In this document: positions 1 to 41,471 of the stretch, in pieces
How positions within the stretch are numbered: the stretch's first letter is position 1
How the letters are laid out: every line of letters starts with the position of its first letter
Assembly (NCBI RefSeq): GCF_058153355.1
Contig: NZ_CM177019.1
Direction: 5' to 3' (one strand)
Length of the DNA: 64,000 nt
Program-made: the position numbers and the translations under genes
Notes under the pieces: model-generated
What the model saw: only the letters and a program-made list of their open reading frames with translations
The model's database searches: none
What the model was told of the DNA's origin: nothing

Positions 1-790
1 TCAGGAACTGCACCGCTTCACGTACTTCAACCGCGTTACCGGCACTGGAGGCCAGCACCTGATTCATGTCGGTGAGTAGCGCGGTGGTGCGCACGCCAGC
101 GCCGTTAGCCACGCCAACAATCGCTTCGGCAAGGGCTTCAGAGAGTTCGTAGGTCGGCATAAATGCACCGCTACCGACTTTCACGTCCATCACCAGTGCA
201 TCCAGACCTTCCGCCAGTTTCTTCGCCAGGATCGAGGCAGTGATCAGCGGGATGGAATCCACGGTTGCGGTAATATCGCGGGTCGCATAGAAACGTTTAT
301 CCGCCGGAGCCAGTGAACTGGTCTGGCCAATAATCGCCACGCCGACGTCTTTAATAATTTCGCGGAAACGGTTGTCATCTGGGAAGATGTCGAAGCCAGG
401 GATGGATTCCAGTTTGTCGAGCGTACCACCAGTATGGCCGAGGCCGCGACCGGAGATCATCGGAATATAGCCGCCGCAGGCAGCGACCATTGGCCCCAAC
501 ATCAGCGAAGTCACATCGCCGACGCCGCCGGTCGAGTGTTTATCAACAATCGGGCCATTCAGATGCAGGCTTTTCCAGTCGAGAACGGTTCCTGAATCTC
601 GCATCGCCATCGTCAGCGAGACACGCTCCGGCATTGTCATATCGTGGAAGAAAATGGTCATCGCGAGGGCGGCAATCTGCCCTTCGGAGATAGTGTTGTC
701 GCGAATGCCGTTGATAAAGAAGCGAATTTCTTCATCGCTCAGCGCATGACCATCACGTTTTTTACGAATAATTTCTTGTGCGAGAAACAA
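1..790 (-). CDS. deoA: thymidine phosphorylase, N-terminal ~263 codons (3' end beyond window start)
   Basis: Minus-strand translation from TTG 790..788 (GGAGG 5 nt upstream) reads [23 protein letters not shown], the DeoA N-terminus. It follows deoC as in deoCABD. Absent from the ORF track because there is no stop inside the window. Confidence 0.9.
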
Positions 791-849
791 GGTAACCTCC
801 CGTGGAATAAGTTTGAAGGCGTTGTTGCCAGATGGCGGATGTTGTTATT

Positions 850-932
850 GCCTGATGCGATGCTGACGCATCTTACAAGGCCTACACGGCACTCGACCCG
901 TAGGCCGGATAAGGCGTTCGCGCCGCATCCGG
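850..932. repeat. REP/BIME pair between deoC and deoA
   Basis: Two inverted REP-type palindromes: GCCTGATGCGATGCTGACGCATCTTACAAGGCCTAC and GTAGGCCGGATAAGGCGTTCGCGCCGCATCCGG. Confidence 0.85.
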
Positions 933-957
933 AATCCACCCTCTGGCAAAAGGCAGC

Positions 958-1737
958 TTAGTAGCTGCTGGCGCTCTTACCGTCGCCGTGGCCCAGCGCT
1001 TTCAGCAGGCTTGCCAGCAGGCTGGAAGCACCAAAGCGGTAGTGACGCGCATCTGCCCAGTCAGCACCGAACAGTTCATCTGCAATCGCGAGATATTTCT
1101 GCGCATCTTCCGCAGTACGCACGCCGCCCGCCGGTTTGAAACCAACGGTTTTCTCTACGCCCATATCACGGATCACTTCCATCATGATGCGCGCGCTTTC
1201 CGGCGTCGCGTTCACTGCTACTTTACCGGTAGAGGTTTTGATGAAATCAGCACCCGCTTTGATGGAGATTTCAGACGCTTTGCGGATCAGCGCTTCGTCT
1301 TTCAGTTCGCCGGTTTCAATAATCACTTTCAGCAGTACGTTCGCTGCTGCGCAAGCCTCTTTACAGGCTTTCACCAGATCAAAACCAACCTGCTCGTTAC
1401 CCGCCATCAGCGCACGGTACGGGAACACCACATCAACTTCATCGGCACCGTAGGCGATTGCCGCGCGGGTTTCGGCCAGCGCGATTTCGATATCGTCGTT
1501 ACCGTGTGGGAAGTTGGTTACCGTAGCGATACGGATTTCCGGGGTACCCTGCTCTTTCAGCGTTTTGCGAGCAATCGGGATAAAGCGAGGATAGATACAG
1601 ATAGCGGCGGTATTACCTACCGGAGTTTTGGCCTGATGACACAGGGCGATCACTTTCTCGTCGGTATCGTCGTCATTCAGGGTGGTCAGGTCCATCAATT
1701 TCAGTGCACGCAGGCTGCTTGCTTTCAGATCAGTCAT
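958..1737 (-). CDS. deoC: deoxyribose-phosphate aldolase
   Basis: ORF track 958..1761. The 259-aa form from the internal ATG ([29 protein letters not shown]...) matches DeoC as I remember it. Confidence 0.95.
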
Positions 1738-4510: not shown

Positions 4511-5293
4511 CTACCCACGAACGTTAAACACCGCATACGTGTTATTAAGCAACACTTCGGCAATCTCATCCGCGGGTTCCGGGCGTAACTCGCACAGCAC
4601 GGCAAACACACGGGCGGCCTGTTCAGGGCGATTAGGCTGCCCCTGAAAACCATTGAGCGGCATATCTGGTGCGTCGGTCTCCAGCAACAACGATGCCAGC
4701 GGCAGCTTTGCGATGACATCGCGGGTTTTACTGGCGCGTGGATAGGTGATAGTACCGCCTACGCCAATTTTGTAGCCCAGCTGCACAAACCGTTCGGCCT
4801 GTTGCAGGCTGCCAGAAAAACCATGAACCACACCAGTGCGTGGCAAATTTTGGCGTTTAAGATGCATCGCCAGTTTGTCGTGCGTGCGCCGTGAATGAAG
4901 GATCACCGGCAGATCGTAGCGTTTCGCCAGTTTCAGTTGTTCATCAAGCAACCACTGCTGCCTCTCAAATTGCGGATCGTCACCAAAGAGATCCAGGCCG
5001 ATCTCCCCCACCGCCACCACCTTCGTCGGACGTCTTCCCAACGCCTGCTGTAACTGATCCAGCGATGCATCGTTATGTTTTTCCAACATCCCCGGATGCA
5101 ACCCTAAAGCGGCATACAGCGGTTGATAATTTTCCGCTAACGCCTGCACGCGGGCAAAATTTGCCGCCTCGGTGGCCGGAACAATGATCTTGCCTACGCC
5201 CGCTTGTGCCGCGCGTTGCAGGCTGGCCTCTTCATCGCCACTAAACGGCGGGAAATCAAAATGGCAGTGGGTGTCGATAAAACGGCAAATCAA
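4511..5293 (-). CDS. yjjV: TatD-family metal-dependent hydrolase/DNase
   Basis: N-terminal FIDTHCHFDF motif and TatD-like length. Overlaps the yjjU stop by 4 nt. Confidence 0.9.
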   Translation of the reverse strand: MICRFIDTHCHFDFPPFSGDEEASLQRAAQAGVGKIIVPATEAANFARVQALAENYQPLYAALGLHPGMLEKHNDASLDQLQQALGRRPTKVVAVGEIGLDLFGDDPQFERQQWLLDEQLKLAKRYDLPVILHSRRTHDKLAMHLKRQNLPRTGVVHGFSGSLQQAERFVQLGYKIGVGGTITYPRASKTRDVIAKLPLASLLLETDAPDMPLNGFQGQPNRPEQAARVFAVLCELRPEPADEIAEVLLNNTYAVFNVRG

Positions 5294-6363
5294 GCCAAAT
5301 CCTCATTGTTAAATGTCGGGTCGTTCGCCTGTGGAGCGTCTATCACCTCGGTAACCAGCGTATCGTTGGCGACGGGTGCAGGCGGAATAACGATCGACTC
5401 CGGCGTCACCACCGGCACCAGATGGCGGCTCAGCGGCGCTTTTTCAGTCAATAACTTACCGACCGTTGCCAGAAAATAACGCCCGCATAAACGCCCAAGT
5501 TTATAGTCTTCACGCAGCGCCGGAATCCGACTGCCGAGCGCGATACTATGTAATGGCTTCGGCGGATAAATTTCGAATATCCTCAACTGGCCCGGTGGTT
5601 TCTCAATAAATTGCTGAATCTCACGATAGCTGGTTTCATGATGCTGCACCAGATTGACCAGCGGCTGCAGGCTACTGTCACCCAGCCAGCGTTCCATGCG
5701 TTTGAACCACTGCGGCGTGTAGTACATTTGTGACGGCACAGTGCGGATGACGACTAACGTTTTTGCGCCCTGCCTTGCTGCCTCTTTAACCGGGATCGCA
5801 TCACTGATCCCGCCATCCAGGTAATTAATGCCTTCCAGCGACACTCCGCTACGATAAAAGCCCGGTATCGCACTGGAGGCGCGAATCACATCCAGCCAGT
5901 TCTGTTTGTTTGGCAAAAAGTAATTCGGCGCATAGTCATCCTGACGACAAGCGCACATATAAAACGATTTGCCGCTGTCAAATAGCCGCGCTGCGGTGTC
6001 CATTTGCAACGGCATCTGGCTTGCGGTGGCCTCCACCAGCCAGTCGAGATCGATAAGATTTCCTCCACGGACAAAGCGCAATGGATCGAAAAATTCGCGT
6101 TTTGTGGTATAGCGCATGATGACTTTGCGCGCGTAACCGGGCTGATTGCAGATATACGCCGAGAGGTTCTGCGCCCCGGCAGATGTGCCGAGATAAAGAT
6201 CGAAAGGATTAAACTGCGCGCGCATAAACTCATCCAGCACGCCAGCTGTGAAAATTCCACGCTGTCCGCCGCCTTCGCACACCAGAGCAATCCGTCCAGG
6301 CTGGAACGGCCTTAGCGACAACGGCGCAATATTACCAAGCGTTACAGGTATTCGCTGCCCCAC
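5290..6363 (-). CDS. yjjU: patatin-like phospholipase
   Basis: CEGGGQRG oxyanion motif and GTSAG nucleophile elbow. The 357-aa form from GTG 6363 (VGQRIPVTLGN) fits K-12 YjjU. The track ORF extends to 6399. Confidence 0.85.
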   Translation of the reverse strand: MGQRIPVTLGNIAPLSLRPFQPGRIALVCEGGGQRGIFTAGVLDEFMRAQFNPFDLYLGTSAGAQNLSAYICNQPGYARKVIMRYTTKREFFDPLRFVRGGNLIDLDWLVEATASQMPLQMDTAARLFDSGKSFYMCACRQDDYAPNYFLPNKQNWLDVIRASSAIPGFYRSGVSLEGINYLDGGISDAIPVKEAARQGAKTLVVIRTVPSQMYYTPQWFKRMERWLGDSSLQPLVNLVQHHETSYREIQQFIEKPPGQLRIFEIYPPKPLHSIALGSRIPALREDYKLGRLCGRYFLATVGKLLTEKAPLSRHLVPVVTPESIVIPPAPVANDTLVTEVIDAPQANDPTFNNEDLA

Positions 6364-9511: not shown

Positions 9512-9563
9512 TTGACACTGTTTATTCATACAGTTAAAAATAATACTGTATAAAAACGCAGTA
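9512..9563 (+). promoter_or_regulatory. SOS promoter with two LexA boxes
   Basis: TTGACA (9512..9517), 17-nt spacer, TAAAAA. Box 1 is CACTGTTTATTCATACAGTT (9516..9535) and box 2 is TACTGTATAAAAACGCAGTA (9544..9563). Both fit CTG-N10-CAG. Confidence 0.8.
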
Positions 9564-9577
9564 GAGAGGGGTTTTTT

Positions 9578-9826
9578 ATGCGTATTGAGATCTGCATAGC
9601 CAAAGAGAAAATGACTAAAATGCCAAACGGTGCTGTGGATGCGTTAAAGGAAGAATTAACTCGGCGCATCAGTAAGCGTTATGACGATGTAGAAGTGATC
9701 GTAAAAGCCACCAGCAATGATGGGCTTTCTGTTACACGCACCGCAGATAAGGATTCTGCAAAAACATTTGTTCAGGAGACTCTGAAAGATACCTGGGAGT
9801 CTGCTGACGAGTGGTTTGTTCACTAA
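9578..9826 (+). CDS. DinI-like DNA-damage-inducible protein
   Basis: 82 aa. MRIEICIAK...[16 protein letters not shown] parallels DinI (MRIEVTIAK...ILQETWESADDWFV). Preceded by LexA boxes. Confidence 0.85.
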
Positions 9827-32636: not shown

Positions 32637-33689
32637 TTATTTCCCCACCAGTTCACTTACCTCTTTCACCGTCTGGTTAAACCGATCTGACTCAAACTCA
32701 ACACCTAACGCCCGACGCCCCAGCGCCATTGCTGCTTTTATTGTGGAACCGGATCCCATAAAGAAATCAGCAACCAGATCGCCTGGTCGACTACTGGCAT
32801 TGATTATTTGCCGGAGCATATCCGCAGGCTTCTCACACGGATGTTTACCCGGGTAGAACTGAACGGGTTTATGCGTCCAGACGTCGGTATAAGGCACGGA
32901 AACTGATACGGAGAAATAGCGCCGGAGAGTTTTAAACTCATCCAGCAATTCAGAATATTTGCGATTCAGTGAATCATAAGATGCCACCAGCTGGTGGTGT
33001 GTGTGTTCCAGTTGTTGTTCCTGAAACTTCTCTGCCGCTATACGGGAAAACAGTGCCTGCAACTTTCGGTAGTCAGCCTCGTTCGGCAACTGCCACTGAC
33101 TGGCACCAAACCAGTGGGAAACCATATTTTTCTTACCAGTGGCTTCGGCAATCTGTTTTGCCGTTATCCCCAGTTCGGCACGAGCATCCCTGAAATACGA
33201 AATCAGCGGTGCCATTATGTGCTGTTTGAGTTCCCTTTCTTTTGCCGCATAGCCGTCACTTTTGCCGCGATATGGCCCCTGGTAATGTTCAGCAAACAGA
33301 ACGCGCTCTGTTGCGGGAAAATATGCGCGCAGACTTTCTTTATTACACCCGTTCCATCGTCCGGACGGCTTCGCCCAGATGATATGGTTAAGCACGTTGA
33401 AACGTTCACGCATCATGATCTCGATATCAGATGCGAGGCGATGTCCACAGAACAGGTAAAGGCTTCCGGCAGGTTTCAACACCCGCCAGAACTGGGCCAG
33501 ACAATGGTCCAGCCACTTAAGGTAATCTTCGTCCCCTTTCCACTGATTGTCCCAGCCGTTGGGTTTCACCTTGAAGTACGGCGGATCGGTAACAATCAGG
33601 TCAATGGAATCATCAGGCAGGGACTGAATAAAATACAGGCAATCAGCGTTGATTAAATCAGCACTGTTTATTTTTACAGTATTTTTCAT
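32637..33689 (-). CDS. orphan DNA methyltransferase (beta-class N6A/N4C; DPPY then FxGxG)
   Basis: IVTDPPYF near the N-terminus and DFFMGSGST near the C-terminus. No adjacent restriction gene. Confidence 0.8.
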   Translation of the reverse strand: MKNTVKINSADLINADCLYFIQSLPDDSIDLIVTDPPYFKVKPNGWDNQWKGDEDYLKWLDHCLAQFWRVLKPAGSLYLFCGHRLASDIEIMMRERFNVLNHIIWAKPSGRWNGCNKESLRAYFPATERVLFAEHYQGPYRGKSDGYAAKERELKQHIMAPLISYFRDARAELGITAKQIAEATGKKNMVSHWFGASQWQLPNEADYRKLQALFSRIAAEKFQEQQLEHTHHQLVASYDSLNRKYSELLDEFKTLRRYFSVSVSVPYTDVWTHKPVQFYPGKHPCEKPADMLRQIINASSRPGDLVADFFMGSGSTIKAAMALGRRALGVEFESDRFNQTVKEVSELVGK

Positions 33690-34057: not shown

Positions 34058-34152
34058 GACATACCAATAACTCTTGTCTAAAAAGCCAGCAAGATAAAAA
34101 GTCAGTATTCACGACCACCAGCGTGTTTACCGTACTGCCAACATCAAGGCAC

Positions 34153-34177
34153 AAAAAAACCCGCTCAGCGGCGGGTT
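34153..34177 (-). terminator. late-operon terminator (tR'-like) downstream of the late promoter
   Basis: Minus strand: AACCCGC-CGCTGA-GCGGGTT followed by TTTTTTT, about 50 nt downstream of the predicted late promoter. Confidence 0.75.
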
Positions 34178-34223
34178 CTTAAATCTTATCAACGGTAGAC
34201 ATACAAAGCCCATCGTTGGGACA

Positions 34224-34252
34224 ATCTTATCCATATTTTTTGAAAAATGCAA
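34224..34252 (-). promoter_or_regulatory. late promoter (PR'-like) downstream of Q
   Basis: Minus strand: TTGCAT - 17 nt - TAAGAT, located 32 nt after the Q stop and ahead of the terminator. This is the lambda Q/PR'/tR' arrangement. Confidence 0.65.
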
Positions 34253-34283: not shown

Positions 34284-35036
34284 TTATCTCGTCACTTTTC
34301 TTAATTGCGTCTCAGCATATGCTTCTTCCTGCCAGCACTTTGTCACCAGTTTATCAATGACATCTGCATATCCTTTGTACCACTGATAATCCGTCAAATC
34401 TGGTACCAGTTTCTGTACATGACACCGCGCCAGTGTCGTTGGTAAACGGCTAAACCGGTTTCCATTGCAACGTCCACAAATCTTATAAACAGGCCTGCCA
34501 TGAAGCCGGGTCCTTTTTTCATCCAGGACAATACCTTTACCCTTACACCCTCTGCACGCTGTGCTGACTTCTCCCTTACCATGGCAATGCTGACACAGTT
34601 CCTTTACCCACTCTTCCTTGATAACAGATTCCCCGCTTCTGGAGTGTTTCACCACTTCGCGCAATACATTATGAAATCCAGTACCAGCACAATGCTCACA
34701 GCAAGCCTTACTTGCCGCAGACCTGGAATAATCAGCAAAGGCAAAATTCACAAGGTAAGGAATGATCTGTAGCCGGGTTTCTTCACTCAATTTGTTCAAT
34801 GTCGGGTTATCCAGTGCCATCGCGTAATTGAGCAGACCTTCAATCGCAAACTGAGGATCCTGAATACCAAGTTTTGCCAGGAATAAGGCAAACCCAAGCG
34901 GTGCTTTCGACTGCACCATCCCCTGCGCAGCCATTACATCCGTAATTGTTAAACCACCAGAGCCTGTCGCCGGTGCGTCATCGCTCAATATTGGAGATTT
35001 TGGGGAGTAATATTTCGGTAAGGCTTCAAGGTTCAT
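34284..35036 (-). CDS. antitermination protein Q (QuuQ/YdfT-like, DnaJ-type zinc-finger repeats)
   Basis: 250 aa. CEHCAGTG, CQHCHGKG, CRGCKGKG and CGRCNGNR repeats, as in the Qin prophage Q homologue. Confidence 0.75.
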   Translation of the reverse strand: MNLEALPKYYSPKSPILSDDAPATGSGGLTITDVMAAQGMVQSKAPLGFALFLAKLGIQDPQFAIEGLLNYAMALDNPTLNKLSEETRLQIIPYLVNFAFADYSRSAASKACCEHCAGTGFHNVLREVVKHSRSGESVIKEEWVKELCQHCHGKGEVSTACRGCKGKGIVLDEKRTRLHGRPVYKICGRCNGNRFSRLPTTLARCHVQKLVPDLTDYQWYKGYADVIDKLVTKCWQEEAYAETQLRKVTR

Positions 35037-35049
35037 GCTCGTTCTCCAC

Positions 35050-36045
35050 TTACGCCAGTACGCCTATTGCCAGCGCACGATCGATAAAACGAAATATCAG
35101 CTCCAGCTGGGAGCCATACTTCTCTTCAAATGCCGCGGTATCCGCATGCAACTCGTCGTGATGCTTTCTGCACAAAGGCAACACAAAGAGGTCATGCGCT
35201 TTTGTACCCATTCCGCCCTGACCGTGGCCTATCAGGTGGTGGGGATCATCAGCAGGCTTTCCACAACATGCACACGGCTGTGTCTTAACCCAGCGCGTGT
35301 ACTTTTCGTTAACCCAGCGGCGACGTTTTGGGCGTAACATAAAAGACTCCGGCGACTCCGGATCCACTTTCAGCGCCAGCACCTTTTTCACTTTATCCTG
35401 GATGATGCTGGTGGCAGGAACCGAAGGAACAAGGTCACTTTCCCGGGTGACAGACGGCACAACAGGCTTCGGTAATCTCAGTGCCTTACGGGCTGCACTT
35501 TCCGGCAAGGCACCCGCCAGGTCATTACGAACCAGCCACCAGCACAGTTCCGGCATTGTCACAACGTGACTATCATCAAAACCGAGATCCCGACGCACGA
35601 CAGACAACACCCAGCGGGCACAGTTATCCGTTGCCATTGATTCCAGCCGTTCCGTGAACTGATCGCGCAGCTGGTTATCGCAGTGCCAGCACAGACGGAT
35701 TGCGCCCGGCGCGTGTCGCATTGTGGTCATGTTCTCGCTGTGCCAGTCGGAATGAGGCCACTGACAGCCATTTTCACGAAGTAACCAGCTTTCAAGACAT
35801 TCCACGCCACCAGCACGACGGATCACTGCCTCATTGCGGAACACGCCCCGAACGGCAGGATCATCCGCCAGCGGTTGTGATACCGCCGGAACGGCACCAC
35901 TGGCGAAAGATGAATAACGTTCCGGCTCAGGCTCCAGCAGGACACGCCCCTGCATAAACAGGGGCATCAGCTCTGAACCTGGTCTGAACAATACGATCCC
36001 CATACGCGGGGCAATTTCAGGGGTCAGTAATGCTCTCACGGTCAC
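35050..36045 (-). CDS. DUF968-family protein (YdfU/YfdN-like) with C-terminal HNH-like motif
   Basis: 331 aa. C-terminal CACCGKPADDPHHLIGHGQGGMGTKAHDLFVLPLCRKHHDELH. Confidence 0.6.
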   Translation of the reverse strand: MTVRALLTPEIAPRMGIVLFRPGSELMPLFMQGRVLLEPEPERYSSFASGAVPAVSQPLADDPAVRGVFRNEAVIRRAGGVECLESWLLRENGCQWPHSDWHSENMTTMRHAPGAIRLCWHCDNQLRDQFTERLESMATDNCARWVLSVVRRDLGFDDSHVVTMPELCWWLVRNDLAGALPESAARKALRLPKPVVPSVTRESDLVPSVPATSIIQDKVKKVLALKVDPESPESFMLRPKRRRWVNEKYTRWVKTQPCACCGKPADDPHHLIGHGQGGMGTKAHDLFVLPLCRKHHDELHADTAAFEEKYGSQLELIFRFIDRALAIGVLA

Positions 36046-36046
36046 C

Positions 36047-36862
36047 TCAATGAACGGTATCGAGCAGCTTTAACAGCTCAGGGAATCGGGATTCGAAGAA
36101 ATGCGGCTGCGTCTCGCGCGGATTTGCGGGACTGGTGATGTTCTTGCCGAACATGCAGCCTTTCGCTGTCAGCGACCAGAATTTTTTGATGTTGTTAATC
36201 GCGGTACGGCTGTATCGTTCGCGTTGTTCGACGATCCCCAGCTTCGCCATCTGGTGATATGCCTGATTAGCCGTCAGGCGGATACCATACTGTTTCAGCA
36301 GTGCACTCAGCGACAGCGTAGGGCGGCTTGAACCATCTGGCGCATCAGCAGGGGCATCAATGGCATAGATCGGCATAAGTTCAGGAAGACCAGCTACCTT
36401 TGATAATTTCTGGTATGCACCAAGTTTCGAGGAGTTTGACAGATTTAGAGTCTTTGCTGCTGATTCAAGCAGAATGACCCCGGATTTGATTTTGTCGGAT
36501 ATGGTTTCTTCTGGTGATGAATTATGAAGCGCATCAAAAGTACGTATCACTTTTAAGCTGAATGCCGGGCTGATCCACATTGCATATGCATAGACCAGCT
36601 CTTTACAGACATACGTCCCACCATTGCGCCCCTGAATGGTGATGACAGGAATACTACGGGAATCTCCCGTAGTTTCTTCTTCCAATAATTCCACAAGAGC
36701 CTTCGTTTCAGGACGACGCATAAACTCGTGAACTTCCAGCGAACGGGAGGAGCGATTCTCACCAGCAGCAAGAAGAGCAGCTTTCTGAAGGTCGTTAAGA
36801 CAGTAGTTAGATTCGAAGTACTGGCGCACAGAAACGCCATCAATTACAAGCAACTGATTCAT
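36047..36862 (-). CDS. KilA-N domain / antirepressor-like protein
   Basis: ATG 36862 with GGAGA 5 nt upstream (the track starts at GTG 36874). The N-terminal half resembles KilA-N (…IQGRNGGTYVCKELVYAYAMWISPAFSLKVI…). The C-terminal half is Ant-like. Confidence 0.65.
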   Translation of the reverse strand: MNQLLVIDGVSVRQYFESNYCLNDLQKAALLAAGENRSSRSLEVHEFMRRPETKALVELLEEETTGDSRSIPVITIQGRNGGTYVCKELVYAYAMWISPAFSLKVIRTFDALHNSSPEETISDKIKSGVILLESAAKTLNLSNSSKLGAYQKLSKVAGLPELMPIYAIDAPADAPDGSSRPTLSLSALLKQYGIRLTANQAYHQMAKLGIVEQRERYSRTAINNIKKFWSLTAKGCMFGKNITSPANPRETQPHFFESRFPELLKLLDTVH

Positions 36863-36959
36863 TGGTTTCTCCACAAATTTTTATCCACGAGCGGGACTGC
36901 ACTCCCTTTTCGTTGATGCAGGATGCACTTACTGCGATTTTTAATAGTTATCAAGGGCA

Positions 36960-36979
36960 TACTGTTCATAAATACAGTA
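36960..36979. promoter_or_regulatory. LexA box upstream of the KilA-N/Ant gene
   Basis: TACTGTTCATAAATACAGTA (CTGT-N8-ACAG), 98 nt upstream of the ATG in the 162-nt rusA-kilA gap. Confidence 0.8.
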
Positions 36980-37024: not shown

Positions 37025-37420
37025 TTACCGAGTTGCTAATTTGCAACTCGCTTTTTCGTACTTACTGATAGTGATCTCGACCTTCCCTTCCGGGATAACC
37101 GGTCCCCACTCCACCAGCATTCTTTTCACCTGACTGTCGTCTTCCCACACACCCGCGTGGGTCAGAGCGTCAAACAGCGCCTTGTTATAGTTGTCCAGAT
37201 CGCGGATCCGGTTATCCGGAGGAAACAACACGATCTCCACTGAAGCAGGTGCCGACGTTGGTTTCGGCAGACGACGTAACTGCTCAACTATTGCTGCGCA
37301 CGCCGCGCTCTGGAATTTGCGCCCCGCCGCGCTTATCAGGCTTTTACCAGCAAACGCCCCTTTGTTAGGGTGTCGCCAGTACGTATTCACGCTGGGCGGG
37401 AAAGGCAGGATCAGTTTCAT
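37025..37420 (-). CDS. rusA: RusA-family Holliday junction resolvase
   Basis: 131 aa. LPFPPSVNTYW...RDLDNYNKALFDALTHAGVWEDDSQV, typical of RusA. Confidence 0.85.
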   Translation of the reverse strand: MKLILPFPPSVNTYWRHPNKGAFAGKSLISAAGRKFQSAACAAIVEQLRRLPKPTSAPASVEIVLFPPDNRIRDLDNYNKALFDALTHAGVWEDDSQVKRMLVEWGPVIPEGKVEITISKYEKASCKLATR

Positions 37421-37743
37421 ACTTTCAGGCCTCTCTCATGTAACCAGTGGGTTGCACGCAGCCTTGCGTTTTCCTCACCGGCAAGCAGTGAGCGGATAAT
37501 CCCGACAGCCTCGCTGTCGTCGTCCTTCACCGCGGTATGAAGCGTTATCCCCCGGGCCACGCCACGCTTTATCGTGATGACGCCTTTTTTCTCCAGTGCG
37601 CGAAGATGCTCCACCGCTGCATTCACTGAACGGTATCCCAGCATGGTTGCCACCTCCTGATTGGTTGGCGGGAAGCCACGTTCTTTCTGGTAAGAAATCA
37701 GCATATCCAGCACCTGCTGCTGGCATTGAGTTAATGTCGTCAT
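37417..37743 (-). CDS. LexA N-terminal DNA-binding-domain protein lacking the S24 peptidase domain
   Basis: 108 aa. LTQCQQQVLDMLISYQKERGFPPTNQEVATMLGYRSVNAAVEHLRALEKKGVITIKRGVARGITL aligns with LexA residues ~4-69. The 40-aa tail is unrelated. Confidence 0.8.
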   Translation of the reverse strand: MTTLTQCQQQVLDMLISYQKERGFPPTNQEVATMLGYRSVNAAVEHLRALEKKGVITIKRGVARGITLHTAVKDDDSEAVGIIRSLLAGEENARLRATHWLHERGLKV

Positions 37744-38393
37744 GCCGCCATCTCCCTGACCAGTTTTTCCGCCTGCTGGCGAACCTGCGCCAGAAAGGCC
37801 TCACCACATGCCTCAAGTTCATCGCGCCCGATGTAGCTGATTGCCGGTCCCTTCCAGGTCTTGTCGAAAACAACAATAGCACCAGCGAAGAAAGCGCCTG
37901 TCGGCACCTGCTTCTCGTCCTTCGGTATAAACCAGGCAGGCAGTTCAAAACCAATACGCCCGCGAATAAAAGCAATATGATCTGCATCTTCCGGCCACCA
38001 CACTTCGCTGGTGGCAGCTTTGATCAGGAAAACATAGCGCCCGCCTTTATCACGCATGGCACTGGCATGTTTCATGATGTAACGCATGCCGGTGATGTAT
38101 TGCCCCTCATGCTGACTGGCGCGGCTGTATGGGGGATTACCAAAGGCAGCACCTTTAAGCTCCGCAAGACGTTCTGACCAGTCATGCGCCAGCGCGTTGT
38201 CTTCCGCCGTGTAATACGCGGCACATTTGGCGTTATCACCGTCAGTGAACAGATCCAGAACAAACGGACCAAACAAGGTGTTAATTCCCCAGAAAATGTT
38301 GTCCGGCGTGCGCCACTGATCGCCCACTTCCTTCAGTTCATGGGCTGGTTTGTTCCGCAGTTCTACCAGCGCCTGGCAATATTTATTACTCAT
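37740..38393 (-). CDS. phage Dam-type N6-adenine DNA methyltransferase
   Basis: 217 aa. FGNPPYS catalytic motif. Size and N-terminus (WRTPDNIF) typical of the phage N6A-MTase family. Confidence 0.75.
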   Translation of the reverse strand: MSNKYCQALVELRNKPAHELKEVGDQWRTPDNIFWGINTLFGPFVLDLFTDGDNAKCAAYYTAEDNALAHDWSERLAELKGAAFGNPPYSRASQHEGQYITGMRYIMKHASAMRDKGGRYVFLIKAATSEVWWPEDADHIAFIRGRIGFELPAWFIPKDEKQVPTGAFFAGAIVVFDKTWKGPAISYIGRDELEACGEAFLAQVRQQAEKLVREMAA

Positions 38394-39828: not shown

Positions 39829-40409
39829 GCGTTAGTTTCTCCACAGACACAAAACGCCACGACGCCCGGAGCTGCACACTCGCGGGCGTCACTCTTTTCT
39901 GGAGCGCAAAAGATTTTGTAGACCAGTGCTGCATGCTCCTGGAGCTTCGAAATTGACAGATACAACTCATCATTAATTACTGTCTGCTCGTGTGGCTCCA
40001 CTACCCCATCTTCGATTGCCGAACGAATCTGCTTTGAGTAACTCCCGATCTGTTCGATGACTTCCAGCAGACGCTGGTTTATATCGGCGTTCTCTACTTC
40101 CTCAATTTCAGGAAGCGATACAAACACCCCACCAGCAGACTGTGCGACAGCATCCGCAATGTAGTGAGTGCCAGCCGCGCGCTGTAAAATCATTGCCCAT
40201 CCCAGCGGGAAAATCTGATCGCCATCTGCACGAAGGCGGTTGAATAAAGCGTTCTCTGTTACATCCAGCCACTCAGCAGCTTCAGCGTAACCTCCCGGCA
40301 ACGCCGCGATAGTTTTTCTGACAGCTTTCACGTACCACTCAGGCTGTTTTTCTACTTTCCAGTGATGCTTACCCACGGCTATCTCCTTAAAACTGTGGTT
40401 ACTTTCCAT
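39825..40409 (-). CDS. CII-like / YmfL-family phage regulatory protein
   Basis: 194 aa. Second gene of the rightward early operon, after cro. Resembles e14 YmfL (from memory). Confidence 0.55.
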
Positions 40410-40647
40410 CAGATAAGTCTTTAATCTTTTGAAAAATATCTGGACGTAATTTTTCTTTTGATACGCCAGTGGTCATTTCAATGAATATCGAGAGCTTTGC
40501 AGGGGGACGCTTTTCTCTGTTCAACCAGTTCCAGACATGTTGTTGCTTTACTAAACGACCACTGCTGGCTGTGAGCTTCCGAGCCAATTCTGATTGACCA
40601 CCAGCCAGAGCGATTGCCTCTGATAAGGCTAATTGCTCAGGTGTCAT
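40399..40647 (-). CDS. Cro-like HTH repressor
   Basis: 82 aa. HTH ...GGQSELARKLTASSGRLVKQQHVWNW... Divergent from cI across the operator region. Confidence 0.75.
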   Translation of the reverse strand: MTPEQLALSEAIALAGGQSELARKLTASSGRLVKQQHVWNWLNREKRPPAKLSIFIEMTTGVSKEKLRPDIFQKIKDLSDGK

Positions 40648-40659
40648 AGCTTTCTCCTA

Positions 40660-40770
40660 TCTGTAAGTAGTAAAGTTGTTGATAACTTCGATTATACAAC
40701 TACAACAACTTTTATTACAACTTTTAGATGTTGGAAAGCTAAAACATAAAGTTGTAACCTCAATAAAAAC
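40660..40770. promoter_or_regulatory. OR-like operator/promoter region (PR toward cro, PRM toward cI)
   Basis: Repeated AAGTTGT/ACAACTT half-sites. Minus-strand TTGTAA-N18-TATAAT (TATAAT = revcomp of 40691..40696). Shares the blocks ACATAAAGTTGT and ATTACAACTT(T/A)(T/A)AGATGTTG with 41655..41710. Confidence 0.7.
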
Positions 40771-40784
40771 GAGGGGGATATGTT

Positions 40785-41471
40785 GTGAAAACATTGGCAG
40801 AAAGACTAAAAAGCGAAAGAGAAAAAGCAGGAATGAGTCAGGCGCAACTAGCTGAAAAAATTGGACTTTCACAACAATCCGTAGCGAAAATCGAGAATGG
40901 AGAAACTCAACAGCCTCGGAAAATTAAAGAGATTGCTAAAGTGTTAGGGGTTTCTCAAAAGTGGTTGCAATTGGGCATTGAGGATAACGCGTCTTTCCCA
41001 AACCTTGTTGTAAAGGAGGCTGAAAGTACAACATTAGATCCTGACATTTTTGCAAACATTCCTGTCCTAGATGTCGAATTATCAGCGGGTAATGGATGTT
41101 TGGCTGAAATAGTTGAATCAACTGTAGACTGGTTCCCGCTAAGAAGGATTGATTTAAGGAAAGCTGGTGTATGTGTCTCCAATGCAAAGATCGTAAAAAT
41201 TTGGGGTAATAGTTTACTACCTGTACTTAACAATGGAGATTTTGTTGCTGTTGATGTTTCCCAAACAGTTCCTATTCGTGATGGGGATCTTTATGCTATA
41301 CGTGATGGCGTATTACTTAGAGTTAAAATATTGATCAATTTACCTGACGGTGGTCTGATTCTAAGAAGTTTCAATAAAGATGAGTATCCAGATGAAATAC
41401 TCACCTTCGAAGATAGGCGTTCCAGAATTCACGTTATAGGTAGAGTATTCTGGTCATCGCGCACTTGGTAA
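40785..41471 (+). CDS. CI-type repressor (XRE HTH plus S24 LexA-like peptidase domain)
   Basis: GTG start with GAGGGGG upstream. HTH MSQAQLAEKIGLSQQSVAKIENG. C-terminal GNSLLPVL and LRVKIL (Ser/Lys dyad context). Confidence 0.85.
   Translation: MKTLAERLKSEREKAGMSQAQLAEKIGLSQQSVAKIENGETQQPRKIKEIAKVLGVSQKWLQLGIEDNASFPNLVVKEAESTTLDPDIFANIPVLDVELSAGNGCLAEIVESTVDWFPLRRIDLRKAGVCVSNAKIVKIWGNSLLPVLNNGDFVAVDVSQTVPIRDGDLYAIRDGVLLRVKILINLPDGGLILRSFNKDEYPDEILTFEDRRSRIHVIGRVFWSSRTW

What the first reader, a model, noticed from the sequence alone, without database searches (positions are those of the whole stretch)
37417..37743. Phage-encoded LexA DNA-binding domain without the cleavable C-terminal domain
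Seen:
- The 108-aa product aligns along its first ~70 residues with the LexA N-terminal winged-helix domain. The recognition-helix region is included: LGYRSVNAAVEHLRALEKKGVI versus LexA [22 protein letters not shown].
- It then continues with an unrelated 40-aa tail. There is no Ala-Gly cleavage site and no Ser/Lys peptidase domain.
- It lies in the early operon directly upstream of rusA and the LexA-boxed ant promoter. The same prophage carries three LexA boxes in total.

Inference: it may be a RecA-insensitive LexA mimic or competitor. It could hold SOS-box promoters (phage or host) repressed, or displace LexA, once the phage early operon is on. I do not know of a characterised function for such proteins.
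Basis: partly seen in the sequence, partly recalled or inferred. Interest (0 to 1): 0.6.

Follow-up and report, generated by a model that had tools for sequence, protein, structure and literature searches.

The report
Truncated LexA paralogue in lambdoid prophage
A prophage gene found in about four in ten E. coli genomes encodes only the DNA-binding half of the SOS repressor LexA, joined to a small conserved helical tail. It probably binds LexA-type DNA sites without being destroyed by DNA-damage signalling, but I found no report that tests its function.

Summary
The ORF is real: 37417-37743, minus strand, 108 aa. Residues 1-69 are a genuine LexA winged-helix domain (Pfam PF01726, E 3e-19; about 50% identical to E. 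coli LexA; model rmsd 0.9 A to LexA on DNA). There is no S24 peptidase domain.

- An Ala-Gly (A88-G89) does align with LexA's cleavage site, but it is not conserved and sits in a predicted helix.
- The tail is a conserved helical hairpin under purifying selection, not unrelated filler.
- The prophage has four LexA boxes, not three.
- The "ant" gene is a KilA-N protein.

The gene is an annotated but apparently uncharacterised family (PHROG 362; PGAP "LexA family transcriptional regulator"). It occurs in 2232 of 5426 complete E. coli genomes and in SfV, mEp460, cdtI and Stx2 phages. It always lies just upstream of RusA-DUF968-Q.

One clade places it inside a LexA-boxed operon. Another clade has no LexA boxes nearby. 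LexA base-contact residues S39, N41 and A42 are fixed, E44 is always lost and E45 varies.

Best reading (confidence about 0.4): a RecA-insensitive dimeric stand-in for LexA at CTGT-type operators. Main rival: a regulator with its own operator, like GIL01 gp6, the one characterised truncated LexA.

The parts
37417..37743 (-). Gene for the 108-aa truncated LexA paralogue ('LexA-N'), stop codon included
   Evidence: ORF. PF01726 E 2.9e-19. PHROG 362 over its full length, E 1e-59. PGAP name 'LexA family transcriptional regulator' in a 97.7% identical prophage.
37537..37743 (-). Residues 1-69: LexA-type winged helix-turn-helix (helices 6-22, 28-35, 40-52; strands 56-58, 66-68)
   Evidence: AlphaFold model, block pLDDT about 78-88 over this domain. 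Foldseek best hit is the LexA-DNA complex 3jso: rmsd 0.9 A over 68 columns, 50% identity.
37588..37629 (-). Residues 39-52: recognition helix SVNAAVEHLRALEK (LexA: [14 protein letters not shown]). S39, N41, A42 and E45 are kept; E44 is replaced by V.
   Evidence: Alignments. Contact-residue list from PMC3091678 and PMC13416735. Family variation.
37516..37536 (-). Residues 70-76: acidic, disordered linker (TAVKDDD; LexA has QEEEEG at this position)
   Evidence: pLDDT below 50 for residues 71-75. Alignment.
37420..37521 (-). Residues 75-108: conserved helical hairpin (helices 75-88 and 93-103), the inferred dimerisation module. It contains the vestigial A88-G89.
   Evidence: pLDDT about 90. Conserved in relatives of 40-50% identity. 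dN/dS 0.19 in the P0130 clade. The Ala-Gly is not conserved.
37751..37756 (-). Shine-Dalgarno GGGAGA, 7 nt upstream of the ATG, inside the 3' end of the methylase gene
   Evidence: Read directly from the sequence.
37740..38393 (-). Upstream gene: Dam-type N6-adenine methyltransferase. Its stop codon overlaps the LexA-N ATG (ATGA).
   Evidence: PF05869 E 7e-46. ORF coordinates.
37025..37420 (-). Downstream gene: RusA Holliday-junction resolvase. Its ATG overlaps the LexA-N stop codon.
   Evidence: ORF. PGAP annotation. RusA lies downstream of the LexA-N gene in all eight divergent loci inspected, directly or after one small ORF.
36960..36979 (.). LexA box TACTGTTCATAAATACAGTA (24.0 bits), 11 nt downstream of a weak sigma-70-like promoter (TTGAGC-17-TATTAC) between rusA and kilA-N
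   Evidence: The promoter hexamers were read by eye and were not reported by the scan.
34284..36874 (-). Genes downstream of that box: KilA-N protein (36047..36862/36874), DUF968/HNH protein (35050..36045) and the Q-type antiterminator (34284..35036). They are tightly packed, with no strong terminator between them.
33662..33681 (.). LexA box (22.5 bits) within the first codons of an N6/N4 DNA methylase gene (32637..33689, minus strand). It lies downstream of a PR'-like promoter and a strong terminator (about 34250-34150).
9516..9563 (.). Two LexA boxes in tandem (22.7 and 19.0 bits) upstream of a dinI-like gene (9578..9826, plus strand) at the prophage end next to prfC
40399..41471 (.). Immunity region: Cro-like gene (40399..40647, minus strand) heading the operon that contains LexA-N, and a CI repressor with an S24 peptidase domain (40785..41471, plus strand)
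   Evidence: A promoter-like site at 40720-40691 on the minus strand.

Best explanation
The protein is a phage descendant of LexA that kept the DNA-binding domain and lost the self-cleaving peptidase/dimerisation domain. A small helical hairpin replaced that domain.

**Shown by computation**
- The fold.
- The absence of the cleavage machinery.
- Conservation of the tail.
- The gene's place in the rightward (Cro-side) lytic operon, translationally coupled to its neighbours. It should therefore be silent in the lysogen and made once CI is inactivated or on infection.

**Inferred**
- Two hairpins pair into a four-helix bundle, giving a dimer.
- The dimer presents two LexA-type recognition helices to CTGT-containing palindromes, that is, SOS boxes or close variants.
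- RecA* cannot remove it, so it would re-occupy LexA operators after host LexA has been cleaved. In this prophage those operators are the kilA-N/DUF968/Q promoter, the dinI-like gene and the late-region methylase. In the host they are the SOS regulon and the LexA-controlled switches of co-resident prophages.
- In short, it would act as a damage-blind LexA stand-in that closes SOS-dependent promoters once the lytic programme is running.
For: - LexA domain match and fold.
- S39, N41, A42 and E45 are retained in this protein. S39, N41 and A42 are essentially fixed across the family (residue list). Cyanobacterial LexAs, which bind a different motif, differ at positions 41, 42, 44 and 45.
- There is no S24 domain, and the Ala-Gly is not conserved.
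- The tail is conserved and under purifying selection.
- The window holds four strong LexA boxes. Shuffles gave 0-2 hits at 14 bits or more. CTGT..ACAG pairs are enriched only at the LexA spacing of 8.
- Among 80 loci with the same protein there are 55 boxes, against 1 in shuffles.
- In the P0138 clade, 20 of 25 loci have a strong box within 1 kb upstream of the gene. In L086 and L088 the box sits on a promoter that follows a terminator.
- No alternative conserved palindrome and no gp6-type site turned up.
- The gene's linkage does not depend on the type of replication module.
- From background knowledge, not tested here: non-cleavable LexA blocks SOS, and N-terminal fragments of LexA-type repressors can still repress (compare S. 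aureus CI, PMC10584840, listed).
Against: - E44, a LexA base-contact residue, is replaced by a hydrophobic residue in every family member. E45 is A or L in many members of two clades, including phages whose own boxes are canonical. Specificity is therefore not held to LexA's.
- The P0130 clade (80 loci) shows no LexA-like boxes near the gene, even at 10 bits (44 hits against 51 in shuffles).
- 39 of the 80 loci with the identical protein have no strong box within 10 kb. Only 4 have the box after rusA.
- In the P0138 clade, binding its own operon's box would shut off Q. That is hard to rationalise.
- Dimerisation through the tail was not modelled.
- GIL01 gp6 shows that a LexA-derived domain about 44% identical to its host's LexA can recognise an unrelated site and activate transcription.
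- No LexA-N-minus control set could be built.
Confidence: 0.4

Rival explanations
1. It is a phage-specific regulator with its own operator, the gp6 model. The LexA-derived domain would have drifted to recognise a different site. The protein would then switch particular phage promoters on or off, for example to time late genes or shut down early ones, without touching the SOS regulon.
For: - GIL01 gp6 is exactly such a case (PMC6182141).
- E44 is lost throughout the family, and E45 varies within clades in the way phage immunity specificities do.
- The P0130 clade has no LexA boxes.
- A different dimerisation module could impose a different half-site spacing.
- LexA-DBD-only proteins recur in many unrelated phages.
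Against: - No alternative palindrome is shared by the loci. Apart from terminators and what look like immunity operators, nothing emerged. No CTGT/ACAG spacing other than 8 is enriched.
- There are no gp6-type sites.
- An identical protein is carried by mosaic phages whose immunity and late regions differ.
- S39, N41 and A42, the signature of the CTGT-binding LexA class, stay fixed.
Confidence: 0.3
2. It is a DNA-binding accessory of the RusA-DUF968 (HNH) recombination block rather than a transcription factor. It might target or tether those nucleases to particular DNA.
For: - LexA-N lies upstream of RusA, directly or after one small ORF, with DUF968 and Q further downstream. This holds in all eight divergent loci inspected (about 40-50% identity), whatever lies upstream.
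- 64 of 67 loci with this Q type carry the gene.
- Start/stop overlap with rusA suggests coupled translation.
Against: - The conserved order can simply reflect inheritance of a module.
- RusA-DUF968-Q blocks exist without this gene (3 of 67 loci; also E. coli K-12 cryptic prophages, from background knowledge).
- The domain is a sequence-specific repressor fold with its recognition-helix signature conserved.
- The link with LexA boxes in two clades is not explained.
Confidence: 0.12
3. It is a decaying remnant of a captured lexA gene with no function.
For: It is truncated relative to LexA and keeps a vestigial Ala-Gly.
Against: - dN/dS is about 0.2 in both domains across 68 distinct alleles.
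- The full-length architecture is conserved at 40% identity.
- It is intact in 2222 of 5426 E. coli genomes, and the exact sequence occurs on at least 1000 contigs.
- It has a good ribosome-binding site and translational coupling.
Confidence: 0.02

Closest known systems
LexA, the SOS repressor of E. coli and other Gammaproteobacteria (TIGR00498; PDB 1lea, 1jhh, 3jso)
   Same: - The N-terminal winged helix is about 50% identical and superposes at 0.9 A.
- The recognition helix keeps S39, N41, A42 and E45.
- An acidic linker follows the domain.
- Even the segment around the cleavage site still aligns (LLAGE against VAAGE).
   Different: - There is no S24 peptidase/dimerisation domain and no Ser119/Lys156.
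- The Ala-Gly is not conserved and lies in a helix.
- E44 is replaced.
- A 30-residue helical hairpin stands where the C-terminal domain would be.
- It is encoded in a phage lytic operon.
- It scores below the LexA equivalog cutoff.
GIL01 (Bacillus tectivirus) gp6, a phage-encoded truncated LexA homologue that activates late promoter P3 (PMC6182141)
   Same: It is a phage-encoded, LexA DNA-binding-domain-only protein in a phage whose life cycle is wired to host LexA. It is the only characterised example of this kind that I found.
   Different: - There is no detectable pairwise similarity (BLASTP finds nothing). The two are independent truncations of Gram-positive and gammaproteobacterial LexA.
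- gp6 is 66 aa and has no tail.
- gp6 binds GaCACAnnTGTGaC, which is absent here beyond chance.
- gp6 is an activator. The activity of the present protein is unknown.
Non-cleavable LexA (Ind-) mutants and the LexA N-terminal cleavage fragment (background knowledge, not tested here)
   Same: These are LexA DNA-binding activity that RecA* cannot remove. That is the functional analogy behind the best explanation.
   Different: - They are laboratory mutants or transient degradation intermediates.
- The fragment lacks a dimerisation module and is cleared by ClpXP.
- The phage protein carries its own conserved tail and ends in ...RGLKV.
Small dimeric winged-helix repressors with a C-terminal helical dimerisation element (BlaI/MecI, Rrf2, MarR types)
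   Same: The overall architecture is a winged helix followed by C-terminal helices. Weak Foldseek and Pfam echoes were seen (2g9w, MepR; Rrf2 E 0.013).
   Different: There is no significant sequence or fold match beyond the generic winged helix. The DNA-binding domain is specifically LexA-type.
Tandem LexA-N-terminal-domain proteins from metagenomes (for example P0132, 222 aa)
   Same: They have LexA DNA-binding domains without a peptidase domain. They offer another way to provide two reading heads.
   Different: They have two domains in one chain and a different recognition helix (SSPNGVMCH). Context and function are unknown.

Membership tests
LexA SOS repressor (TIGR00498 equivalog) | N-terminal LexA-type winged-helix DNA-binding domain | tested here: met
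   PF01726, full-length match, E 2.9e-19. 3jso rmsd 0.9 A.
LexA SOS repressor (TIGR00498 equivalog) | C-terminal S24 peptidase domain with the Ser/Lys dyad, which also provides dimerisation | tested here: not met
   The protein ends at residue 108 and has no PF00717 hit. The alignment to LexA stops at residue 90.
LexA SOS repressor (TIGR00498 equivalog) | Conserved Ala-Gly self-cleavage site in a strand-loop | tested here: not met
   A88-G89 aligns with A84-G85. It is VG, AN, ER, RK, DQ and others in relatives and lies at a helix end in the model.
LexA SOS repressor (TIGR00498 equivalog) | Score above the curated equivalog cutoff | tested here: not met
   70.8 bits against a cutoff of 110.95.
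LexA SOS repressor (TIGR00498 equivalog) | All five base-contact residues of helix 3 (S39, N41, A42, E44, E45) | tested here: not met
   Four of five are kept here (E44V). E44 is never kept in the family, and E45 is variable (residue list).
LexA SOS repressor (TIGR00498 equivalog) | Binds CTGT-N8-ACAG operators | not testable with these tools
   Only indirect evidence is available: boxes are enriched near the gene in two of three clades.
PHROG 362 / PGAP 'LexA family transcriptional regulator' (phage LexA-N family) | Full-length match covering both the winged helix and the C-terminal tail | tested here: met
   phrog_362 E 1.1e-59, residues 1-108 on profile positions 1-106 of 106. Identical or near-identical proteins occur in SfV, SfII, SfIV, cdtI, mEp460 and Stx2 phages.
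PHROG 362 / PGAP 'LexA family transcriptional regulator' (phage LexA-N family) | Position in the nin region upstream of RusA-DUF968-Q | tested here: met
   Window, plus eight divergent loci and 64 of 67 Q-anchored loci.
gp6-type truncated LexA activators (Betatectivirus GIL01) | Phage-encoded LexA DNA-binding domain without a peptidase domain | tested here: met
gp6-type truncated LexA activators (Betatectivirus GIL01) | Sequence relationship to gp6 | tested here: not met
   BLASTP finds no alignment with E up to 100.
gp6-type truncated LexA activators (Betatectivirus GIL01) | Cognate site GaCACAnnTGTGaC at the late promoter | tested here: not met
   Two one-mismatch hits against 2.1 expected, neither near a promoter of the prophage late region.
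gp6-type truncated LexA activators (Betatectivirus GIL01) | Activates transcription of late genes | not testable with these tools
   Needs reporter or in vitro transcription assays.

The most novel reading that the evidence does not exclude
Lambdoid phages of enterobacteria, Stx2-converting phages among them, carry a damage-blind LexA surrogate. Once the lytic programme starts, it would re-impose repression on the host SOS regulon and on the LexA-controlled induction switches of rival prophages. That would make it a phage-encoded anti-SOS factor acting at the operator rather than on RecA, present in about 40% of E. coli genomes.
Probability: 0.3. Interest if true: 0.75.

Novelty: new variant of a known kind. 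Interest (0 to 1): 0.5.

Why it matters
SOS induction drives prophage induction, Shiga-toxin release, mutagenesis and persistence in E. coli. This gene sits in 41% of complete E. coli genomes, in up to four copies, and in Stx2a/Stx2c, cdt and Shigella serotype-converting phages. If its product can occupy LexA operators while ignoring RecA, it would be a widespread and unrecognised modulator of that response and of competition between co-resident prophages.

If it has instead acquired its own operator, it is a second, independent case after GIL01 gp6 of phages turning the LexA DNA-binding domain into a private regulator.

Either way the function is cheaply testable, and I found no published test.

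Tried and rejected
- **Ala-Gly as a real cleavage site** (for example, cleaved in trans). Rejected: it is not conserved and lies in a helix.
- **Tail as random extension or frameshift product.** Rejected by conservation, pLDDT and dN/dS.
- **Longer 'fusion' relatives** (methylase-LexA-N; P0175 and similar). They look like frameshifted or chimeric gene calls and are not informative.
- **Part of the replication module.** Rejected: the gene is present alongside three unrelated replication modules.
- **Obligatory pairing with a LexA-boxed antirepressor.** Rejected: 4 of 80 loci.
- **Alternative half-site spacings or orientations of CTGT.** Only N8 inverted pairs are enriched.
- **De novo palindrome search in intergenic DNA of three clades.** It found only terminators, what look like immunity operators and LexA boxes. 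Two candidates (CTGTA-N12-TACAG and ATGTATC-N5-GGTACAT) are absent from the window.
- **Conserved k-mers across full-flank loci.** Uninformative, because the flanks are homologous.
- **gp6-type sites.** None beyond chance.
- **Weak LexA-like sites near PR, PR' and other promoters.** None beyond chance.
- **Anti-SOS plasmid context** (leading regions with psiB). Plasmid hits look like phage-plasmids or mislabelled chromosomes.
- **Control set of related phages lacking the gene.** It could not be built: 64 of 67 Q-anchored loci carry the gene. The genome-contig scan gave only 7 loci.
- **Alignment-based locus searches.** Failed for lack of a conserved 7-10-residue stretch.
- **Literature.** Seven searches found no study of this enterobacterial family. 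The SfV genome paper and the LexA-DNA structure paper are not held.

Full report
**The observation**

A GGGAGA ribosome-binding site lies 7 nt upstream of its ATG.

Residues 1-65 match the whole Pfam LexA_DNA_bind model (E 2.9e-19, 69 bits). The closest solved structures are the E. coli LexA N-terminal domain and full-length LexA (E 7e-16 to 2e-15). An AlphaFold model (mean pLDDT 83.5) superposes on DNA-bound LexA at 0.9 A over 68 columns with 50% identity.

No peptidase S24 domain is present. The score against the LexA equivalog model (70.8 bits) is well under its cutoff of 110.95.

**Four details need correction**

First, an Ala-Gly is present. HMMER carries the alignment with LexA on to residue 90 and places A88-G89 (LLAGEE) on LexA's cleavage bond A84-G85 (VAAGEP). 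The dipeptide reads VG, AN, ER, RK, DQ and so on in relatives. It lies at the end of a confidently predicted helix. I read it as a vestige of descent from LexA, not a cleavage site.

Second, the tail is a real domain.
- Relatives only 40-50% identical share it.
- It is predicted as a helical hairpin (helices 75-88 and 93-103, pLDDT about 90) after a disordered acidic linker.
- Among 68 distinct alleles of one clade its dN/dS (0.19) equals that of the winged helix (0.20).

Third, the prophage spans about 9.45-48.9 kb between prfC and yjjG and has four strong LexA boxes:
- two in tandem upstream of a dinI-like gene (9516 and 9544);
- one in the first codons of a late-region N6/N4 methylase (33662);
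- one between rusA and the next gene (36960).

Fourth, that next gene is a KilA-N protein, not a Pfam ANT protein.

**What the gene is**

It belongs to an already annotated family: PHROG 362 'transcriptional repressor' (full-length match, E 1e-59) and PGAP 'LexA family transcriptional regulator'.
- Proteins 95-100% identical are encoded by SfV, SfII, SfIV, cdtI, mEp460, Stx2c- and Stx2a-converting phages and others.
- The gene occurs in 2232 of 5426 complete E. coli genomes, with up to four copies.
- The exact protein is on at least 1000 contigs.
- Seven literature searches found no functional study of it.

The searches did find a characterised analogue, GIL01 gp6. This 66-aa truncated LexA homologue binds its own palindrome and activates the late promoter (PMC6182141). 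gp6 and the present protein share no detectable pairwise similarity, so they are independent truncations. LexA-domain-only proteins also recur in many other phages.

**Context**

In the window the gene lies in the Cro-side operon, in this order:
1. cro
2. CII-like gene
3. DUF4222
4. O-like replication protein
5. Dam methylase
6. LexA-N
7. RusA
8. LexA-boxed promoter
9. KilA-N
10. DUF968/HNH
11. Q

LexA-N has 4-nt start/stop overlaps on both sides. The CI repressor has an S24 domain and is presumably RecA-cleavable. LexA-N should therefore be silent in the lysogen and made after derepression or on infection.

I inspected eight loci encoding relatives of 40-50% identity. In all of them the gene lies upstream of RusA, directly or after one small ORF, with DUF968 and Q further on. 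The replication module does not matter: O-like alone, DUF1376 plus lambda-P, or DnaT plus DnaC-like. The gene often follows DNA methylases. Of 67 loci anchored on this Q type, 64 carry the gene.

**Relation to LexA boxes**

I scanned with a weight matrix built from recalled E. coli SOS boxes. The three clades gave different answers.

| Clade | Loci | Loci with a box of 16 bits or more | Box within 1 kb upstream of the gene |
|---|---|---|---|
| Window-type (identical protein) | 80 | 41 (55 boxes, against 1 in shuffles) | 0 |
| P0138 | 25 | 24 | 20 |
| P0130 | 80 | 9 | 0 |

- **Window-type clade.** The box after rusA occurs in only 4 of the 80 loci.
- **P0138 clade.** The box upstream of the gene usually lies at -440 or -615. 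In L086 and L088 the box sits on a promoter just after a terminator. A conserved PHROG 1813 ORF follows, then LexA-N, RusA, DUF968 and Q. There the gene is itself predicted to be SOS-controlled.
- **P0130 clade.** There is no enrichment even at 10 bits (44 hits against 51 in shuffles).

Only the LexA spacing (N8) of CTGT/ACAG pairs is enriched. No other shared palindrome emerged.

**Recognition helix**

LexA's base-contact residues are S39, N41, A42, E44 and E45 (PMC3091678, PMC13416735). The window protein has S, N, A, V and E at those positions.

Across the family S39, N41 and A42 are essentially fixed. E44 is never kept (V, A, F, T, L or Y). E45 is A or L in many members of two clades, including phages whose own boxes are canonical.

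This fits recognition of a CTGT-like core with altered or relaxed discrimination. It equally fits divergence to private operators.

**Mechanism**

With high confidence, this is a RecA-insensitive, probably dimeric, sequence-specific DNA-binding protein of the lytic programme.

With moderate confidence (0.4), it acts as a damage-blind stand-in for LexA at SOS-type operators, closing phage and host SOS promoters once the lytic programme is under way.

The main rival (0.3) is a gp6-like private regulator. A role as a DNA-binding accessory of the RusA/DUF968 block (0.12) rests only on gene order. A dead relic is excluded by the selection data.

Dimerisation, DNA specificity and the sign of regulation are all inferred. 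None could be tested with the tools available.

**Verdict**

The protein is not a LexA orthologue: three defining features were tested and not met. It is not a gp6 family member either. It is best filed as a new variant of the known kind 'phage-encoded truncated LexA homologue'.

What sets it apart is its conserved helical tail, its near-LexA recognition helix, its fixed place upstream of RusA-DUF968-Q and its very high prevalence in E. coli. Interest is moderate at 0.5. It would rise to about 0.75 if the anti-SOS reading proves true.

Noticed in passing
window 34284-36979 (minus strand): The LexA-boxed promoter after rusA is followed by kilA-N, DUF968/HNH and the Q antiterminator. The genes are 1-13 nt apart and no strong terminator lies between them. 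LexA cleavage may therefore turn on Q, and hence late genes, directly and independently of CI.
   Followed up: partly
window 33662-33681 and 34150-34250; also L088 8739 and several P0138-type loci at +3.4 to +4.7 kb: A conserved LexA box (TACTGTAAAAATAWACAGTG type) lies at or just before the 5' end of an N6/N4 DNA methylase gene. The methylase follows the PR'-like promoter and a strong tR'-like terminator downstream of Q. This is a LexA operator inside the late-operon leader, the position that stx genes occupy in Stx phages.
   Followed up: partly
window 9516-9826: Two LexA boxes in tandem (22.7 and 19.0 bits) precede a dinI-like gene (PF06183) at the extreme end of the prophage next to prfC.
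   Followed up: partly
L086 5530-6010; L088 5500-6010; 20 of 25 P0138-type loci: The arrangement is a terminator, then a sigma-70-like promoter overlapped by a strong LexA box, then a conserved ORF of about 75 aa with unknown function (PHROG 1813), immediately upstream of LexA-N. The CI-like repressor in L086 is HTH-only with no S24 domain, so the small ORF may be a LexA-controlled antirepressor.
   Followed up: partly
L003 5547-5566 (inside cI, 5082..5774 minus strand); L089 836 (inside cI, 369..1064 minus strand): A strong LexA-type box (for example TACTGTTTTTACATACAGTA) lies inside the coding sequence of the S24-type CI repressor, in its linker region. This is seen in a set of related phages but not in the window.
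   Followed up: no
proteins P0132, P0133, P0149, P0152, P0153, P0155, P0156, P0159-P0163 and others: Metagenomic proteins carry two LexA DNA-binding domains in tandem and no peptidase domain (P0132: 222 aa, helix SSPNGVMCH twice). This would be a single-chain way to supply two reading heads.
   Followed up: no
L088 9794-11390: An AcrVA2-like gene and a solitary Cas1 gene sit next to the late-region methylase in a prophage that carries a LexA-N relative.
   Followed up: no
L086 3863-5232: A bacterial RNase A-like toxin gene with a CdiI_2-like immunity gene is inserted on the opposite strand, between the replication genes and the LexA-boxed nin operon.
   Followed up: no
E. coli genomes H41, H45-H50 and H54: In many related prophages a PerC-family regulator gene (yfdN) is annotated in the stretch between the replication/methylase genes and rusA; in H54 it lies immediately next to LexA-N. 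This part of the nin region seems to collect small regulators.
   Followed up: no
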